Shown: piece after piece, positions 3,256-48,344 of the stretch
Layout: every line of letters begins with the position of its first letter
Position numbering within the stretch: the first letter of the stretch is position 1
Assembly (NCBI RefSeq): GCF_003334815.1
Contig: NZ_QOWO01000002.1
Strand: one strand, 5' to 3'
Length of the DNA: 64,000 nucleotides
Source: Escherichia coli
Lineage (GTDB): Bacteria > Pseudomonadota > Gammaproteobacteria > Enterobacterales > Enterobacteriaceae
The notes under the pieces: generated by a model
Seen by the model: only the letters and a program-made list of their open reading frames with translations
What the model was told of the DNA's origin: nothing
The model's database searches: none
Program-made: the position numbers and the translations under genes

Positions 3256-3473
3256 GTTAAGCGAGATTTTGTGCCTGGCAGGCCATTGGGTTGAGAATAT
3301 TAGAGTATTGGAAGCGCATTATAAGTTCATTCCAGCTCACAGTGAAATCAGATGTGTACGAAATCACATTTTTTGCCTTTGGCTTGAGTGTAGACCTTAA
3401 GCGAGGAGCAGGATCTTCTTTCAGACTTATGGCATAATGCGCGGTTTGTCATATCTCTTTTCAGGATACGCCT

Positions 3474-5066
3474 GTGTTAGTTTCCAGTAACGTCACCATG
3501 CAGTTCGGCAGTAAGCCGTTGTTTGAAAACATTTCCGTCAAATTTGGCGGCGGCAACCGTTACGGCCTGATTGGCGCGAACGGTAGTGGTAAATCCACCT
3601 TTATGAAGATCCTCGGCGGCGACCTTGAGCCGACGCTGGGTAACGTTTCCCTCGATCCCAACGAGCGCATTGGTAAACTGCGTCAGGATCAGTTTGCCTT
3701 TGAAGAGTTCACTGTGCTGGATACGGTGATCATGGGGCATAAAGAGTTGTGGGAAGTGAAGCAGGAGCGCGACCGCATCTATGCTTTGCCGGAAATGAGT
3801 GAAGAAGACGGCTATAAAGTGGCCGATCTGGAAGTTAAATACGGCGAAATGGACGGTTACTCTGCGGAAGCTCGCGCCGGTGAACTGTTGCTTGGCGTGG
3901 GAATTCCAGTGGAACAGCACTACGGCCCGATGAGTGAAGTTGCTCCTGGCTGGAAGCTGCGTGTGCTTCTGGCGCAGGCGCTGTTTGCTGATCCGGATAT
4001 TCTCCTGCTCGACGAACCGACCAACAACCTCGACATCGACACCATTCGCTGGCTGGAACAGGTGCTGAACGAGCGTGACAGCACCATGATCATCATCTCG
4101 CACGACCGTCACTTCCTTAACATGGTCTGTACCCACATGGCGGATCTGGATTACGGCGAGCTGCGCGTTTATCCGGGTAACTACGATGAGTACATGACGG
4201 CGGCGACCCAGGCGCGTGAACGTCTGCTGGCCGATAACGCCAAGAAGAAAGCGCAGATTGCTGAGTTGCAATCTTTCGTTAGCCGCTTTAGCGCCAACGC
4301 CTCGAAATCTCGCCAGGCAACTTCGCGCGCGCGCCAGATTGATAAAATCAAACTGGAAGAGGTGAAAGCCTCCAGCCGTCAGAACCCGTTCATCCGTTTT
4401 GAACAGGATAAGAAACTGTTCCGTAACGCGCTGGAAGTGGAAGGTCTGACCAAAGGGTTTGATAACGGTCCGCTGTTTAAAAATCTCAACCTGCTGCTGG
4501 AAGTGGGTGAAAAACTGGCGGTACTGGGTACCAACGGCGTCGGTAAATCAACGCTGCTGAAAACGCTGGTGGGCGATCTGCAACCGGACAGCGGCACCGT
4601 AAAATGGTCTGAGAACGCGCGCATTGGTTACTATGCTCAGGACCACGAATATGAGTTTGAAAATGATCTGACCGTGTTCGAATGGATGAGCCAGTGGAAG
4701 CAGGAAGGCGATGACGAGCAGGCGGTACGCAGTATTCTCGGTCGTTTGCTGTTCAGCCAGGACGACATCAAAAAGCCAGCTAAAGTGCTTTCCGGTGGGG
4801 AAAAAGGGCGGATGCTGTTTGGTAAGTTAATGATGCAGAAGCCGAACATTCTGATCATGGACGAACCGACCAACCACCTGGATATGGAATCCATTGAGTC
4901 GCTGAACATGGCACTGGAACTGTATCAGGGCACGCTGATCTTTGTTTCACACGACCGTGAGTTCGTAAGCTCCCTGGCGACCCGCATTCTGGAAATCACC
5001 CCGGAACGCGTGATCGACTTTAGCGGTAATTACGAAGATTACCTGCGTAGTAAAGGGATCGAGTAA
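3474..5066 (+). CDS. ybiT: ABC-F family ATPase YbiT (two ABC domains, no membrane domain), 530 aa
   Basis: Track ORF with GTG start; two Walker A motifs (GANGSGKST and GTNGVGKST) and two LSGG signature motifs. Confidence 0.93.
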
Positions 5067-5125
5067 GTGATTATCCGTCACCCCGATACTGTCGGGGTGA
5101 CGGCGGCTGATGACAAATGCAAAAT

Positions 5126-5226
5126 AGCCTGATGCGCTACGCTTATCAGGCCTACGCAGTACCTGCAATATATTGAATCTGCAGGACTTTGTAGGCCGGA
5201 TAAGGCGTTAACGCCGCATCAGGCAT
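5126..5226. repeat. REP/BIME element (two inverted REP units with a central palindrome)
   Basis: gcctgatgcgctacgcttatcaggcctac and gtaggccggataaggcgttaacgccgcatcaggc are classic REP sequences; related copies occur at 47205-47302 and 48258-48344. Confidence 0.85.
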
Positions 5227-5306
5227 TAACAAAGCGCATTTGTCAGCAATCTGAGTAACGTCGAATCGATTTTCTTAATCCCACATCAATTCACTTCCAT
5301 TAATTC

Positions 5307-6572
5307 TCAAACATCCATGCCCAACGCTCGCTTACCGTGAATGTTGAGGTCGGCAAGCGTAAAGCGTCCTTCCCAGTTTGTTTCATAGTCCTCGCGCGGG
5401 AAGTCGCCCGGCGATGCGCCTTTTTCCAGTGCGGCCTTCACCTTGTGCGCGTAGGCAAGATTTTTCTCGCACATCGGTGCCGCAGGAATGTACATCACGT
5501 TGCCCCAACCTTGTTGATTTTCAACGGGGGCAACGGAATGGATGACGTCGCAGTGCCACCAGACGGAGTCTCCGGCTTCGAGTTTTGGAATGCTGGTTAA
5601 CGCCTCAATCAACAGTGGATGCCATTGCTCTGATACCGGCAATACTCTTCCGGGCGCTACGCCGCACAGTTCATCCTCCGGCACATCATCAAGCAGCGGA
5701 CGTAACAGTACGTACGCCATAGCTTCAGGAATGGGCACGACGTGCAGCAGCCCCTGACCAGGCAGCATATCAGAGAGCGCTGTCCAGCCCTGGAATGTCC
5801 GAAACACGGAACATTTGGTGGTGTTGTCCACCGTGTACTCTTCAACTTCCGTACGATGTGCCGCATGCCAGGGATCATATTGCGCCAGATTGCCATTAAA
5901 GACGTTGGCGAAAACGCGCTGATACGCTGGAAGCAGCCAGCGTTCCAGTGCCCCGGAGTCGGTATGCGCTCCAAGACCTTTGGAGGTCGTTCCGGGCGGA
6001 CGGCGGCGGATACGGTCAGGGTAGATGACGCTCACATCCGGGTTAAACCATTGCTTTCCATCACTTTCAAATGTCCACAGACGATTGAGAAACGACTGCG
6101 CATTCGCCATTTCTTCACTCTGGCGGGCCTGCATTTGCGCCTGCGACCAGTAGATGGGGTAAATCTCGGGACGTGAAGCGCTGAGCGTCCCGAAGAAATT
6201 ATCGCCGGGGCCTTTGTAGACCTCGTCAAAGCGGTTGCGGTCCAGATAGTCCAGCATCGACTGATCCCAGCCTAGCGCTTGTTCGCGGGGGAAATGGCCT
6301 TTTATCACCGCACAACCGCGACGTTTAATCTGTTCGCGCTGCTCTGCAGTAACATGACCTGCTTTGATATCGGCATAAGACAGCACCGGCCAGACGGCAT
6401 CGCCCTGTGCTTTGAGTGCGTTGATTTCAGCCACTCGCGTGGCAATGTCATCGCTTAGCTGATTAAAGATCTGCTGGACGTCGCCAAGCTGCGCCCGCAG
6501 CGCGTGCTTCATCTGACGGATAGCTGCTTTGTGATCGGCAGGCAATGTGTCGCTGGTAAAAGTAGAAGCCAT
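5307..6572 (-). CDS. ybiU: DUF1479-family protein YbiU, 421 aa
   Basis: Track ORF 5307..6578 begins at a GTG; the ATG two codons in (MASTFTSD...) follows the SD gagagg and gives the 421-aa length I recall. Confidence 0.88.
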   Translation of the reverse strand: MASTFTSDTLPADHKAAIRQMKHALRAQLGDVQQIFNQLSDDIATRVAEINALKAQGDAVWPVLSYADIKAGHVTAEQREQIKRRGCAVIKGHFPREQALGWDQSMLDYLDRNRFDEVYKGPGDNFFGTLSASRPEIYPIYWSQAQMQARQSEEMANAQSFLNRLWTFESDGKQWFNPDVSVIYPDRIRRRPPGTTSKGLGAHTDSGALERWLLPAYQRVFANVFNGNLAQYDPWHAAHRTEVEEYTVDNTTKCSVFRTFQGWTALSDMLPGQGLLHVVPIPEAMAYVLLRPLLDDVPEDELCGVAPGRVLPVSEQWHPLLIEALTSIPKLEAGDSVWWHCDVIHSVAPVENQQGWGNVMYIPAAPMCEKNLAYAHKVKAALEKGASPGDFPREDYETNWEGRFTLADLNIHGKRALGMDV

Positions 6573-13875: not shown

Positions 13876-14078
13876 GAAAACACTCCTGCGGAGGCAAAAT
13901 CGAATTTGCCTATTATGTCAGAAAAACGCCACAGACTGTATGCCACCTCGGGCGTAGCGCTGGGTCCTGCCTTTACATGCCATATCCATCTTTCTATATT
14001 CAAAAATTGAATGAGTAATTCATAAAAATTCTGATATTTATAGCAAAAGTGGCGAACCACCCTTAATGGACGAATACT

Positions 14079-15044
14079 ATGGGCAAAGCAGTCATTGCAA
14101 TTCATGGTGGCGCAGGTGCAATTAGCCGCGCGCAGATGAGTCTGCAACAGGAATTACGCTACATCGAGGCGTTGTCTGCCATTGTTGAAACCGGGCAGAA
14201 AATGCTGGAAGCGGGCGAAAGTGCGCTGGATGTGGTGACGGAAGCGGTGCGTCTGCTGGAAGAGTGTCCACTGTTTAACGCCGGAATTGGCGCTGTCTTT
14301 ACGCGTGATGAAACCCATGAACTGGACGCCTGTGTGATGGATGGTAACACCCTGAAAGCCGGTGCGGTGGCGGGCGTTAGTCATCTGCGTAATCCGGTTC
14401 TTGCCGCCCGGCTGGTGATGGAGCAAAGCCCGCATGTGATGATGATTGGCGAAGGGGCAGAAAATTTTGCGTTTGCTCGTGGCATGGAGCGCGTCTCGCC
14501 GGAGATTTTCTCCACGCCTTTGCGTTATGAACAACTACTGGCAGCGCGCAAGGAAGGGGCAACCGTCCTCGACCATAGCGGTGCGCCACTGGATGAAAAA
14601 CAGAAAATGGGCACCGTGGGGGCCGTGGCGTTGGATTTAGACGGCAATTTGGCGGCAGCCACGTCCACAGGCGGAATGACCAATAAATTACCCGGACGAG
14701 TTGGCGATAGTCCCTTAGTGGGTGCCGGATGCTACGCCAATAACGCCAGTGTGGCGGTTTCTTGTACCGGCACGGGCGAAGTCTTCATCCGCGCGCTGGC
14801 GGCATATGACATCGCCGCGTTAATGGATTACGGCGGATTAAGTCTCGCGGAAGCCTGCGAGCGGGTAGTAATGGAAAAACTCCCTGCGCTTGGCGGTAGC
14901 GGTGGCTTAATCGCTATCGACCATGAAGGGAATGTCGCGCTACCGTTTAACACCGAAGGAATGTATCGCGCCTGGGGCTACGCAGGCGATACGCCAACCA
15001 CCGGTATCTACCGTGAAAAAGGGGACACCGTTGCCACACAGTGA
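14079..15044 (+). CDS. iaaA: isoaspartyl dipeptidase / L-asparaginase IaaA (Ntn hydrolase), 321 aa
   Basis: Track ORF; begins [14 protein letters not shown]; length as recalled. Confidence 0.93.
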
Positions 15045-16902
15045 TGAACTTGATGCCGGTAATGTGCTGGCGGTTGAAAATCTGAATATTGCCTTTATGC
15101 AGGACCAGCAGAAAATAGCTGCGGTCCGCAATCTCTCTTTTAGTCTGCAACGCGGTGAGACGCTGGCAATTGTTGGCGAATCCGGCTCCGGTAAGTCAGT
15201 GACTGCGTTGGCATTGATGCGCCTGTTGGAACAGGCGGGCGGTTTAGTACAGTGCGATAAAATGCTGTTGCAGCGGCGCAGTCGCGAAGTGATTGAACTT
15301 AGCGAGCAGAACGCTGCACAAATGCGCCATGTTCGCGGTGCGGATATGGCGATGATATTTCAGGAGCCGATGACATCGCTGAACCCGGTATTTACTGTGG
15401 GTGAACAGATTGCCGAATCAATTCGTCTGCATCAGAACGCCAGTCGTGAAGAAGCGATGGTCGAGGCGAAGCGGATGCTGGATCAGGTACGCATTCCTGA
15501 GGCACAAACCATTCTTTCACGTTATCCGCATCAACTCTCTGGCGGGATGCGCCAGCGAGTGATGATTGCGATGGCGCTGTCATGCCGCCCGGCGGTGCTG
15601 ATTGCCGATGAGCCAACCACCGCGCTGGATGTCACTATTCAGGCGCAGATCCTGCAATTAATCAAAGTATTGCAAAAAGAGATGTCGATGGGCGTTATCT
15701 TTATCACTCACGATATGGGCGTGGTGGCAGAGATTGCCGATCGGGTACTGGTGATGTATCAGGGCGAGGCGGTGGAAACGGGTACCGTCGAACAGATTTT
15801 TCATGCACCGCAACATCCTTACACCCGTGCGCTGTTAGCTGCTGTTCCGCAACTTGGTGCGATGAAAGGGTTAGATTATCCCCGACGTTTCCCGTTGATA
15901 TCGCTTGAACATCCAGCGAAACAGGCCCCCCCCATCGAGCAGAAAACGGTGGTGGATGGCGAACCTGTTTTACGAGTGCGTAATCTTGTCACCCGTTTCC
16001 CTTTGCGCAGCGGTTTGTTGAATCGCGTAACGCGGGAAGTGCATGCCGTTGAGAAAGTCAGTTTTGATCTCTGGTCTGGCGAAACGCTATCGCTGGTGGG
16101 CGAGTCTGGCAGCGGTAAATCCACTACCGGGCGGGCGTTGCTGCGCCTGGTCGAATCGCAGGGCGGCGAAATTATCTTTAACGGTCAGCGAATCGATACC
16201 TTGTCACCCGGCAAACTTCAGGCATTACGCCGGGATATTCAGTTTATTTTTCAGGACCCTTACGCTTCGCTGGACCCACGTCAGACCATCGGTGATTCGA
16301 TTATCGAACCGCTGCGTGTACACGGTTTATTGCCAGGTAAAGACGCGGCTGCACGCGTTGCGTGGTTGCTGGAGCGCGTGGGCCTGTTACCTGAACATGC
16401 CTGGCGTTACCCGCATGAGTTTTCCGGCGGTCAGCGCCAGCGCATCTGCATTGCTCGCGCGTTGGCATTGAATCCAAAAGTGATCATTGCCGACGAAGCC
16501 GTTTCGGCGCTGGATGTTTCTATTCGCGGGCAGATTATCAACTTGTTGCTCGATCTCCAGCGTGATTTCGGCATTGCGTATCTGTTTATCTCCCACGATA
16601 TGGCGGTGGTAGAGCGGATTAGTCATCGTGTGGCGGTGATGTATCTCGGGCAAATTGTTGAAATTGGTCCACGGCGCGCGGTCTTCGAAAACCCGCAGCA
16701 TCCTTATACGCGTAAATTACTGGCGGCAGTTCCGGTCGCTGAACCGTCCCGACAACGACCGCAGCGTGTACTGCTGTCGGACGATCTTCCCAGCAATATT
16801 CATCTGCGTGGCGAAGAGGTGGCAGCCGTCTCGTTGCAATGCGTCGGGCCGGGGCATTACGTCGCACAACCACAATCAGAATACGCATTCATGCGTAGAT
16901 AA
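15031..16902 (+). CDS. gsiA: glutathione ABC importer ATPase GsiA (two fused ABC domains), 623 aa, TTG start
   Basis: Track ORF begins at 14923 inside iaaA; the TTG at 15031 gives the [12 protein letters not shown]-terminus and 623-aa length I recall; two Walker A (GESGSGKS) and two LSGG motifs. Confidence 0.88.
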
Positions 16903-35469: not shown

Positions 35470-35488
35470 TAGATAAGTTTTAGATAAC

Positions 35489-35567
35489 AAAAAACCCATC
35501 AACCTTGAACCGAAATGGCGGGGTTGATGGGCTCCACAAAATGGGGACATCAAAGAAAAGCAGTGGC
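35489..35567 (-). ncRNA. rybB: sigma-E-dependent small RNA RybB (about 79 nt)
   Basis: Minus strand reads GCCACTGCTTTTCTTTGATGTCCCCATTTTGTGGAGCCCATCAACCCCGCCATTTCGGTTCAAGGTTGATGGGTTTTTT, matching RybB as I recall it, with its terminator hairpin and U-tail; lies between rcdA and ybjL. Confidence 0.85.
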
Positions 35568-47204: not shown

Positions 47205-47302
<98 letters not shown>

Positions 47303-48257: not shown

Positions 48258-48344
48258 GTAGGCCGGATAAGGCGTCCCCGCCGCATCCGGCACAGGCACC
48301 GTGCTGATGTCTGATGCGACGCTGGCGCGTCTTATCAGACCTAC
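48258..48344. repeat. REP/BIME element (two inverted REP units)
   Basis: gtaggccggataaggcgtccccgccgcatccggca and gatgcgacgctggcgcgtcttatcagacctac. Confidence 0.85.

What the first reader, a model, noticed from the sequence alone, without database searches (positions are those of the whole stretch)
15031..15044. iaaA-gsiA overlap with a TTG start for gsiA
The gsiA frame only reproduces the expected N-terminus if initiation is at TTG 15031, 14 nt inside the end of iaaA; this implies translational coupling of the peptidase to the glutathione importer. Known operon; noted because automated callers usually pick the in-frame ATG far upstream (track start 14923) or a downstream ATG.
Basis: partly seen in the sequence, partly recalled or inferred. 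Interest (0 to 1): 0.15.

Follow-up and report, generated by a model that had tools for sequence, protein, structure and literature searches.

The report
gsiA TTG start overlapping iaaA
The glutathione-importer gene gsiA of E. coli does begin at a TTG codon 14 bases inside the preceding gene iaaA, but this start is already in the curated annotation and has published experimental support, so the finding is correct and ordinary.

Summary
TTG at 15031-15033 is in the gsiA frame. iaaA ends with TGA at 15042-15044, so the two genes share 14 nt. Starting at the TTG gives the 623-aa GsiA (MPHSDELD...).

The TTG is the real start:
- It is the start in the K-12 RefSeq record and in every PGAP record sampled.
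- The NCBIfam GsiA model aligns 1-623 to 1-623.
- It has by far the best Shine-Dalgarno (AAGGGG, 6-nt spacer, -7.8 kcal/mol).
- The aligned codon is TTG, GTG or ATG in all 13 enterobacterial species examined; the rival GTG (15064) and ATG (15097, 14923) are not conserved.
- Published tetracycline ribosome profiling (Nakahigashi 2016) shows depth 46/140/71 at this TTG against 0/0/3 at the older GTG.

The overlap looks like a by-product of stop-codon loss (TAA to AAA at 15018-15020) in the Escherichia/Citrobacter lineage. Other genera have a 5-17 nt spacer.

Translational coupling is possible but not shown. Experimental work on E. coli gene pairs puts -14 outside the window that predicts reinitiation. 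E. fergusonii keeps TTG and the Shine-Dalgarno with no iaaA at all.

Verdict: already known, low interest.

The parts
14079..15044 (+). iaaA coding sequence (beta-aspartyl / isoaspartyl peptidase, 321 aa)
   Evidence: ORF. NCBIfam NF007589 aligns 1-321 to 1-321 at 714 bits, cut-off 567. Annotated the same way in MG1655 and in PGAP records.
15031..16902 (+). gsiA coding sequence (glutathione ABC transporter ATPase, 623 aa, two ABC domains)
   Evidence: Translation. NCBIfam NF007613 aligns 1-623 to 1-623 at 1372 bits, cut-off 1077. MG1655 b0829 is 867520..869391.
15031..15033 (+). gsiA start codon TTG (read as fMet)
   Evidence: The aligned codon is TTG in 6 species, GTG in 5 and ATG in 2. TetRP depth is 46/140/71 here against 0/0/3 at the 2006 start.
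15019..15024 (+). Shine-Dalgarno sequence AAGGGG of gsiA, lying inside the last codons of iaaA, 6 nt before the TTG
   Evidence: Duplex with the 16S 3' end is -7.8 kcal/mol, the best of all in-frame candidates. AAGGGG, AAGGAG or GGGAG sits at the same place in 12 of the 13 species; Enterobacter sp. Bisph1 has no clear one.
15031..15044 (+). 14-nt dual-coding overlap (iaaA codons 318-321 plus its stop; gsiA codons 1-5)
   Evidence: Listed as distance -14 in PMC10666635, supplementary file 3.
15042..15047 (+). iaaA stop TGA (15042-15044) followed by a second in-frame TGA (15045-15047)
   Evidence: In Citrobacter werkmanii the first is CGA and the second TGA is used, giving a 17-nt overlap.
15018..15020 (+). 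iaaA codon K314 (AAA), which aligns with the TAA stop of iaaA in Salmonella, Leclercia, Lelliottia and Enterobacter sp. Bisph1; inferred site of stop-codon loss
   Evidence: IaaA ends ...IYRE* in those genera and ...[12 protein letters not shown] in Escherichia and Citrobacter. The spacing from this codon to the start codon is the same 13 nt in Salmonella and Leclercia; Lelliottia has 14 and Bisph1 16.
15064..15066 (+). rejected alternative start: GTG at codon V12 (612-aa form, the 2006 K-12 annotation)
   Evidence: Shine-Dalgarno duplex is only -3.0 kcal/mol. The codon is GTT or GTA in 5 of 13 species. TetRP depth is 0/0/3.
14923..14925 (+). rejected alternative start: first ATG of the open frame (659-aa form)
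   Evidence: Shine-Dalgarno duplex is -1.5 kcal/mol. In-frame stops lie 12-84 nt upstream of the start in Pantoea, Lelliottia, E. fergusonii, E. lignolyticus and Klebsiella. The extension lies outside the 623-position GsiA model.
15097..15099 (+). rejected alternative start: ATG at codon M23 (601-aa form)
   Evidence: No Shine-Dalgarno (+0.4 kcal/mol). An ATG is present only in E. coli and E. albertii. It would remove the first conserved strand of the ABC domain (alignments to paralogues begin at residues 11-13).
13972..14000 (+). promoter-like site upstream of iaaA (TTTACA-17-TATATT); candidate operon promoter
   Evidence: Consensus scan only. The region is retained upstream of gsiA in E. fergusonii, which lacks iaaA.

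Best explanation
gsiA is translated from UUG at 15031-15033. Its own Shine-Dalgarno sequence (AAGGGG, 15019-15024) directs initiation and lies within the last codons of iaaA. The product is the 623-aa ATPase of the GsiABCD glutathione importer. The 14-nt overlap is most simply a by-product of evolution. In the ancestor, as still in Salmonella, Leclercia, Lelliottia and Enterobacter sp. Bisph1, iaaA ended with TAA just in front of the Shine-Dalgarno, 10-13 nt before the gsiA start; Klebsiella, [Enterobacter] lignolyticus and Pantoea also have spacers (5-17 nt) but different iaaA 3' ends. A TAA-to-AAA change in the Escherichia/Citrobacter lineage made iaaA read on for 8 codons (KGDTVATQ), across the gsiA ribosome-binding site, to the next TGA. 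Ribosomes finishing iaaA are therefore released 11 nt past the gsiA start. They may add some reinitiation or keep the site unfolded, but initiation is expected to be mainly Shine-Dalgarno-directed and does not need iaaA. Shown: the start position, the Shine-Dalgarno, the overlap, and the pattern across species. Inferred: the direction of the stop-loss event and the modest role of coupling.
For: Annotation: MG1655 b0829 starts 14 nt inside b0828, and five PGAP records do the same. Family model: NF007613 aligns 1-623 to 1-623. Shine-Dalgarno: -7.8 kcal/mol at the TTG, against -5.7 or weaker for every other in-frame candidate. Comparison: the aligned codon is a start codon in 13 of 13 species, followed by P-H-S in 10 of 11 equal-length orthologues, and indels in the N-terminal tail are whole codons. 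In Lelliottia, Pantoea and E. lignolyticus it is the first possible start after an in-frame stop, and in Salmonella no other NTG lies within 25 codons downstream. Experiment: TetRP depth is 46.3/140.5/70.6 at the TTG against 0/0/2.98 at the 2006 GTG, and no second candidate was flagged although the GTG at -51 was within the search range (PMC4909307 Table S2). Population: the 60-mer around the start is identical in 3435 of 5426 complete E. coli genomes; in the three variant genomes examined the changes lie at gsiA codons 8 and 11 and iaaA K314R, leaving the TTG and the GGGG core intact. Stop loss: IaaA ends IYRE-TAA in four genera and [12 protein letters not shown] in Escherichia/Citrobacter, and this AAA is 13 nt from the start just as the TAA is in Salmonella and Leclercia; this is the route described as most frequent for overlaps in PMC10666635. 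Independence from iaaA: E. fergusonii lacks iaaA yet keeps AAGGAG-6 nt-TTG behind the old iaaA promoter region.
Against: No N-terminal peptide of GsiA was found in the data sets I could search (blank in Nakahigashi Table S2; absent from two N-terminomics supplements). The TetRP peak lies inside iaaA, so elongating iaaA ribosomes could contribute to it. The authors marked the case '6. nt' under manual confirmation, a code whose meaning I did not see. Codons 5-11 of gsiA vary at all three codon positions (5/4/5 variable columns), so that stretch carries no classic coding signature of its own. The direction of the TAA/AAA change rests on parsimony over 13 species, not on a tree. Nothing here measures how much gsiA translation depends on iaaA translation.
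Confidence: 0.85

Rival explanations
1. gsiA translation is tightly coupled to iaaA translation. Ribosomes terminating at UGA 15042 move back 11 nt and reinitiate at UUG 15031, or iaaA translation is needed to unfold the gsiA ribosome-binding site. The weak UUG codon and the overlap together would then set GsiA output as a fixed fraction of IaaA.
For: The stop and the start are 11 nt apart on one mRNA, with no promoter-like or plus-strand terminator-like site at the junction. The pair sits in one operon and regulon context. The last 15 nt of an upstream gene can suffice for reinitiation, and some E. coli pairs still reinitiate across about 14-15 nt (PMC10666635). Every species with iaaA keeps the iaaA stop within -17 to +17 nt of the gsiA start.
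Against: -14 lies outside the -8 to +10 window those authors take as predictive of reinitiation, and they state that stop-loss overlaps in phase 1 typically lack coupling. gsiA has a strong Shine-Dalgarno of its own. The predicted local RNA structure is no more stable than shuffled sequence (z = -1.34, 19 of 200 shuffles as good), and its main helix is not conserved in E. albertii or Salmonella. E. fergusonii uses the same TTG without iaaA. IaaA and GsiA are not subunits of one complex ('CMPLX not').
Confidence: 0.35
2. The true start is GTG 15064 (V12), giving a 612-aa protein as in the 2006 K-12 annotation. On this reading the TTG is an ordinary in-frame Leu codon in untranslated or iaaA-only sequence.
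For: The conserved ABC fold begins at about residue 11-13 (alignments to DppD, OppD and YejF models and to PDB chains). GTG is present in 8 of 13 species. The 612-aa form exists in older records such as BAA35517.2.
Against: TetRP depth at this site is 0/0/2.98. The Shine-Dalgarno duplex is only -3.0 kcal/mol with a 2-nt spacing. The codon is GTT or GTA in Salmonella, C. amalonaticus, C. werkmanii, Lelliottia and Pantoea. P-H-S after the upstream start codon is conserved even where there is no overlap with iaaA. The annotation was revised away from this site in 2014.
Confidence: 0.03
3. The start is the first ATG of the open frame (14923, 659 aa) or the downstream ATG (15097, 601 aa), as some automated annotations have it.
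For: ATG is the commonest start codon. Both forms exist in public records (6 and 3 contigs for the K-12 allele).
Against: Neither has a usable Shine-Dalgarno (-1.5 and +0.4 kcal/mol). The upstream extension is closed by in-frame stops in five other species and lies outside the GsiA model. The ATG at 15097 occurs only in E. coli and E. albertii and would delete the first conserved strand.
Confidence: 0.01

Closest known systems
E. coli K-12 iaaA-gsiABCD locus (b0828-b0832; GsiA = YliA, UniProt-style N-terminus MPHSDELD)
   Same: Same gene order (moeA divergent, then iaaA, gsiA, gsiB and so on), same TTG start, same 14-nt overlap. The junction sequence is identical to MG1655.
   Different: Only allelic differences. 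The window's GsiA has Ser where K-12 has Pro in ...DLW[S/P]GETL..., so the window is not K-12 itself.
Long phase-1 gene overlaps (-8, -11, -14 ...) created by loss of the upstream stop codon (Fukuda 2003; Huber et al. 2023, PMC10666635)
   Same: iaaA-gsiA is listed at -14. The comparison with Salmonella, Leclercia and Lelliottia shows the expected precursor: a +10/+11 spacer holding the Shine-Dalgarno, with TAA where E. coli has AAA.
   Different: Nothing unusual. The only added detail is that the lost stop lay immediately before the Shine-Dalgarno (TAAGGAG), so the new IaaA tail is encoded by the gsiA ribosome-binding site, start codon and codons 2-4.
Termination-reinitiation coupled pairs with ATGA or TGATG overlaps (-4, -1)
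   Same: Same-strand neighbours in one operon, with the stop and the start close together.
   Different: Here the stop is 11 nt downstream of the start, outside the tested efficient window. The start is UUG with a strong Shine-Dalgarno. The products do not form one complex.
Start-site revisions supported by TetRP (Nakahigashi et al. 2016)
   Same: gsiA (yliA) is row 8 of their Table S2: shift -33, TTG, matching the 2014 re-annotation.
   Different: None; this is that case.

Membership tests
[quoted passage not shown] | Whole-protein score above the curated cut-off, with an end-to-end alignment | tested here: met
   1372.5 bits against a cut-off of 1077. Protein residues 1-623 align to model positions 1-623 of 623 when translation starts at the TTG.
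[quoted passage not shown] | Two fused ABC ATPase domains, followed by gsiB (substrate-binding protein) and gsiC/gsiD (permeases) | tested here: met
   PF00005 twice plus oligo_HPY in the orthologues. gsiB, gsiC and gsiD follow in MG1655. A 512-aa SBP_bac_5 gene is downstream in 10 of the 11 loci that extend past gsiA.
IaaA, beta-aspartyl peptidase (NCBIfam NF007589, equivalog) | Score above cut-off, full-length alignment | tested here: met
   714 bits against a cut-off of 567; 1-321 aligns to 1-321.
Genuine non-AUG (UUG) initiation site | The codon is a start codon (NTG) at the aligned position in orthologues | tested here: met
   TTG in 6 species, GTG in 5, ATG in 2, out of 13.
Genuine non-AUG (UUG) initiation site | Shine-Dalgarno sequence 5-9 nt upstream | tested here: met
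   AAGGGG with a 6-nt spacer, -7.8 kcal/mol. Present in 12 of the 13 species; Enterobacter sp. Bisph1 has no clear one.
Genuine non-AUG (UUG) initiation site | Experimental signal of initiating ribosomes at the codon | tested here: met
   Published TetRP data looked up: 46/140/71 at the TTG against 0/0/3 at the former start (PMC4909307 Table S2). Caveat: the site lies inside iaaA.
Genuine non-AUG (UUG) initiation site | Protein N-terminus observed | tested here: inconclusive
   No GsiA N-terminal peptide in the supplements that could be searched. The gene is probably poorly expressed in rich medium.
Translationally coupled gene pair (termination-reinitiation) | Co-directional neighbours on one transcript | tested here: met
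   No promoter-like site and no plus-strand terminator-like site at the junction. Described as operonic and co-regulated in PMC10355420 and PMC3224099. Transcript mapping was not examined.
Translationally coupled gene pair (termination-reinitiation) | Stop-start distance within the window that supports efficient reinitiation (-8 to about +10 nt) | tested here: not met
   The distance is -14. The window is taken from PMC10666635.
Translationally coupled gene pair (termination-reinitiation) | Downstream translation depends on upstream translation | not testable with these tools
   This needs nonsense mutants of iaaA with a gsiA reporter.
Translationally coupled gene pair (RNA-unfolding model) | A stable, conserved structure that sequesters the downstream ribosome-binding site | tested here: not met
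   MFE -31.4 kcal/mol against a shuffle mean of -27.2, z = -1.34. The 9-bp helix 15000-15008/15053-15061 lies outside the initiation footprint and is broken in E. albertii and Salmonella.

The most novel reading that the evidence does not exclude
The weak UUG codon plus the 14-nt overlap could work as a deliberate coupling device. On this reading gsiA would be translated almost only by ribosomes that have just finished iaaA, fixing a low GsiA:IaaA ratio under CysB control. The 8-residue IaaA tail written over the gsiA ribosome-binding site would then have been kept by selection rather than by accident. TTG and the overlap do occur together in Escherichia and Citrobacter, while non-overlapping genera use GTG or ATG, but that pattern is also what a single shared ancestry would give.
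Probability: 0.12. Interest if true: 0.2.

Novelty: already known. Interest (0 to 1): 0.07.

Why it matters
It matters little beyond annotation hygiene. It is a clean worked example of three things: a non-AUG start that comparative data, a family model and initiation profiling all agree on; a gene overlap created by loss of a stop codon; and why an overlap alone should not be read as proof of translational coupling. Anyone cloning or tagging GsiA should start the construct at the UUG position. The N-terminal 11 residues are a variable tail that precedes the conserved ABC fold.

Tried and rejected
Only two useful enterobacterial loci came back (L004, L005). Orthologous junctions were obtained instead through protein hits and the look-up of encoding contigs.

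(2) A protein search with the first 150 aa returned mostly contig-end fragments. It was useful only for picking the Klebsiella and Pantoea loci.

(3) Supplements of the retapamulin (bioRxiv 10.1101/520783) and Onc112 (10.1101/511675) papers are not held. The TRAINSPOTTER and Salmonella riboproteogenomics supplements contain no GsiA entry. The id tried for a protein-synthesis-rate data set (PMC4006352) is not held, so no IaaA:GsiA translation ratio was obtained.

(4) I looked for an RNA structure that sequesters the ribosome-binding site. It is not significant and not conserved.

(5) I considered programmed frameshifting from iaaA into gsiA, prompted by the 940-aa fusion proteins in the database. 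The fusions are explained by loss of one G in the GGGG run. There is no canonical slippery heptamer in the iaaA frame, and gsiA is in the +1 frame with no stop or rare codon at a plausible shift site. I rejected it as unsupported.

(6) Minus-strand ORFs across the junction (14940-15131, 14947-15150) are mechanical ORFs with no support and were not pursued.

Full report
**What is there**

The window is E. coli. A 701-nt stretch across the site is present in 5426 of 5426 complete genomes at 95-100% identity. Around the finding the plus strand reads ...tac cgt gaa AAA ggg gac acc gTT Gcc aca cag TGA TGA in the iaaA frame. In the gsiA frame the same bases read TTG CCA CAC AGT GAT GAA CTT.
- iaaA is 14079..15044 (321 aa).
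- The gsiA frame is open from the stop at 14908 to 16902.
- TTG is at 15031-15033 and the iaaA stop TGA is at 15042-15044, so the shared stretch is exactly 14 nt.
- Translation from the TTG gives 623 codons beginning (M)[21 protein letters not shown].

**Is TTG 15031 the start?**

Five independent lines agree.

1. Annotation. In MG1655, b0829 (NP_415350.2) is 867520..869391 and b0828 ends at 867533. Five PGAP-annotated genomes, including CFT073, have the same arrangement.

2. Family model. The NCBIfam equivalog for GsiA (NF007613, 623 positions) aligns 1-623 to 1-623 at 1372 bits against a cut-off of 1077.

3. Ribosome-binding site. Among all in-frame NTG and near-cognate codons between the upstream stop and 15200, the TTG has by far the best pairing to the 16S 3' end.

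| Candidate | Product | Duplex (kcal/mol) |
|---|---|---|
| TTG 15031 (AAGGGG at 15019-15024, 6-nt spacer) | 623 aa | -7.8 |
| ATG 14923 | 659 aa | -1.5 |
| GTG 15064 | 612 aa | -3.0 |
| ATG 15097 | 601 aa | +0.4 |

4. Comparison across 13 enterobacterial species.
- The aligned codon is TTG in E. coli, E. albertii, E. fergusonii and three Citrobacter species.
- It is GTG in Salmonella, Lelliottia, Leclercia, [Enterobacter] lignolyticus and Klebsiella.
- It is ATG in Pantoea and Enterobacter sp. Bisph1.
- Interchange among exactly the three start codons is what a start codon does and what a Leu, Val or Met sense codon does not.
- It is followed by P-H-S in 10 of 11 equal-length orthologues, including genera where iaaA does not overlap it.
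- Length differences in the N-terminal tail are whole codons.
- In Lelliottia, Pantoea and E. lignolyticus it is the first possible start after an in-frame stop.
- In Salmonella no other NTG lies within 25 codons downstream.
- The rival GTG at codon 12 is GTT or GTA in five species. The ATG at codon 23 exists only in E. coli and E. albertii.

5. Experiment. Nakahigashi et al. [quoted passage not shown] Row 8 of their Table S2 is yliA (= gsiA): a new site 33 nt upstream of the 2006 start, codon TTG, matching the 2014 re-annotation. Read depth was 46.3/140.5/70.6 at the TTG against 0/0/2.98 at the 2006 GTG. No second candidate was flagged, although the in-frame GTG at -51 (15013) lay within their 60-nt search range. 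That argues against the peak being mere iaaA elongation background.

Two caveats remain. The site is inside iaaA, and no GsiA N-terminal peptide was found in any data set I could search.

**Within E. coli**

The 60-mer centred on the start is identical in 3435 complete genomes and differs by one or two bases in 1988. In three variant genomes examined, the changes are N11D (CFT073 and MS20674), D8N and N11G in one isolate, and K314R in IaaA in another. The TTG and the GGGG core are untouched.

**How callers treat it**

- The 612-aa form is on 12 contigs, the 659-aa form on 6 and the 601-aa form on 3.
- For the window's own allele, only the 623-aa form exists in the collection.
- The large Logan and ENA clusters are represented by 623-aa proteins.
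- The historical error was the GTG 33 nt downstream (2006 annotation), corrected in 2014.

**Where the overlap comes from**

IaaA ends ...GIYRE-TAA in Salmonella, Leclercia, Lelliottia and Enterobacter sp. Bisph1. In the first three the TAA sits directly in front of the Shine-Dalgarno (TAAGGAG or TAAGGGGG). A spacer follows before the gsiA start.

| Species | iaaA stop to gsiA start (nt) |
|---|---|
| E. coli, E. albertii, C. farmeri, C. amalonaticus | -14 (overlap) |
| C. werkmanii | -17 (overlap) |
| [Enterobacter] lignolyticus | +5 |
| Pantoea | +9 |
| Salmonella, Leclercia | +10 |
| Lelliottia | +11 |
| Enterobacter sp. Bisph1 | +13 |
| Klebsiella | +17 |
| E. fergusonii | no iaaA |

In E. 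coli, E. albertii and three Citrobacter species the codon at that position is AAA (15018-15020), 13 nt from the start as the TAA is in Salmonella and Leclercia. IaaA continues KGDTVATQ to the next TGA. In C. werkmanii that TGA is CGA and the adjacent second TGA is used, which gives the 17-nt overlap.

The simplest reading is loss of the stop codon in the Escherichia/Citrobacter lineage. The overlap and the 8-residue IaaA tail would then be by-products: the tail is simply the gsiA ribosome-binding site, start codon and codons 2-4 read in another frame. This is the route Huber et al. 2023 (PMC10666635) describe as the most frequent origin of overlaps. They note that phase-1 overlaps (-8, -11, -14 ...) persist because they cannot be shortened to -4 or -1. 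Their supplementary list gives iaaA-gsiA as -14 and 'not a complex'. The ancestral +10/+11 arrangement belongs to the small E. coli peak that the same authors attribute mostly to independent, Shine-Dalgarno-driven initiation.

**Translational coupling**

It is not excluded, but it is not implied either.

For coupling:
- The two genes are on one strand, with no promoter-like or plus-strand terminator-like site at the junction.
- They belong to one operon and CysB-regulon context.
- The terminating ribosome is only 11 nt from the start codon.
- Some E. coli pairs reinitiate across about 14-15 nt.

Against a strong dependence:
- -14 is outside the -8 to +10 window taken as predictive of reinitiation.
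- gsiA has a strong Shine-Dalgarno of its own.
- The predicted local structure is not more stable than shuffled controls (z = -1.34), and its main helix is not conserved.
- E. fergusonii has lost iaaA altogether, yet keeps AAGGAG-6 nt-TTG directly behind the retained iaaA promoter region.

I put substantial coupling at about one in three. It can be settled only by nonsense mutants of iaaA with a gsiA reporter.

**Comparison with what is known, and verdict**

This is the known iaaA-gsiABCD locus with its known, curated and experimentally supported TTG start. The overlap is a listed example of a common evolutionary pattern. Nothing at these coordinates is new.

Noticed in passing
window 15021-15024 (GGGG run in the gsiA Shine-Dalgarno); proteins P0122-P0124, P0126: Public collections hold 940-aa (and one 911-aa) IaaA-GsiA fusion proteins from E. 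coli, with the junction ...GIYREKG|[10 protein letters not shown]. Loss of one G in the GGGG run puts iaaA into the gsiA frame. Each is a single-member cluster, so homopolymer sequencing error is as likely as real mutants.
   Followed up: partly
L088 (E. fergusonii) 1268-1500, compared with window 13876-14078: E. fergusonii lacks iaaA completely. The moeA-iaaA intergenic region, including the promoter-like TTTACA...TATATT site, is retained and now sits directly upstream of gsiA.
   Followed up: partly
protein P0121 (E. coli, 646 aa): A GsiA variant carries a 23-residue tandem duplication ([23 protein letters not shown] twice) across the first Walker A motif. It is probably non-functional or an assembly artefact.
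   Followed up: no
protein P0138 (900 aa, labelled Trichuris trichiura): A whipworm 'protein' with Asparaginase_2 plus ABC domains is 96% identical to E. coli IaaA and GsiA joined by a spliced gene model. This is bacterial contamination in a eukaryotic assembly.
   Followed up: no
L003 (E. coli strain ExPEC, NZ_CM172609.1) 3332-5426: In this strain gsiA is split into a 510-aa CDS and a pseudogene fragment, so the gene is disrupted. The TTG start and the overlap are unchanged.
   Followed up: no
window 16171-16173 (GsiA residue 381): The window's GsiA has Ser in ...FDLWSGETL..., just before the second Walker A motif, where K-12 has Pro. This exact allele is on 22 contigs in the collection.
   Followed up: no
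window 35486-35564 (-): RybB small RNA, a full-length Rfam match (105 bits).
   Followed up: no
window 48261-48341 (+), 47239-47281 (+), 5148-5190 (-): Rfam matches to naRNA4 (CssrE) and two copies of ES036 (CssrF), which are repeat-derived small-RNA families.
   Followed up: no
window 15000-15008 and 15053-15061 (+): A 9-bp complementarity (ACCGGUAUC / GAUGCCGGU) brackets the gsiA ribosome-binding site and start in the predicted fold. It is not significant against shuffles and not conserved in E. albertii or Salmonella.
   Followed up: yes
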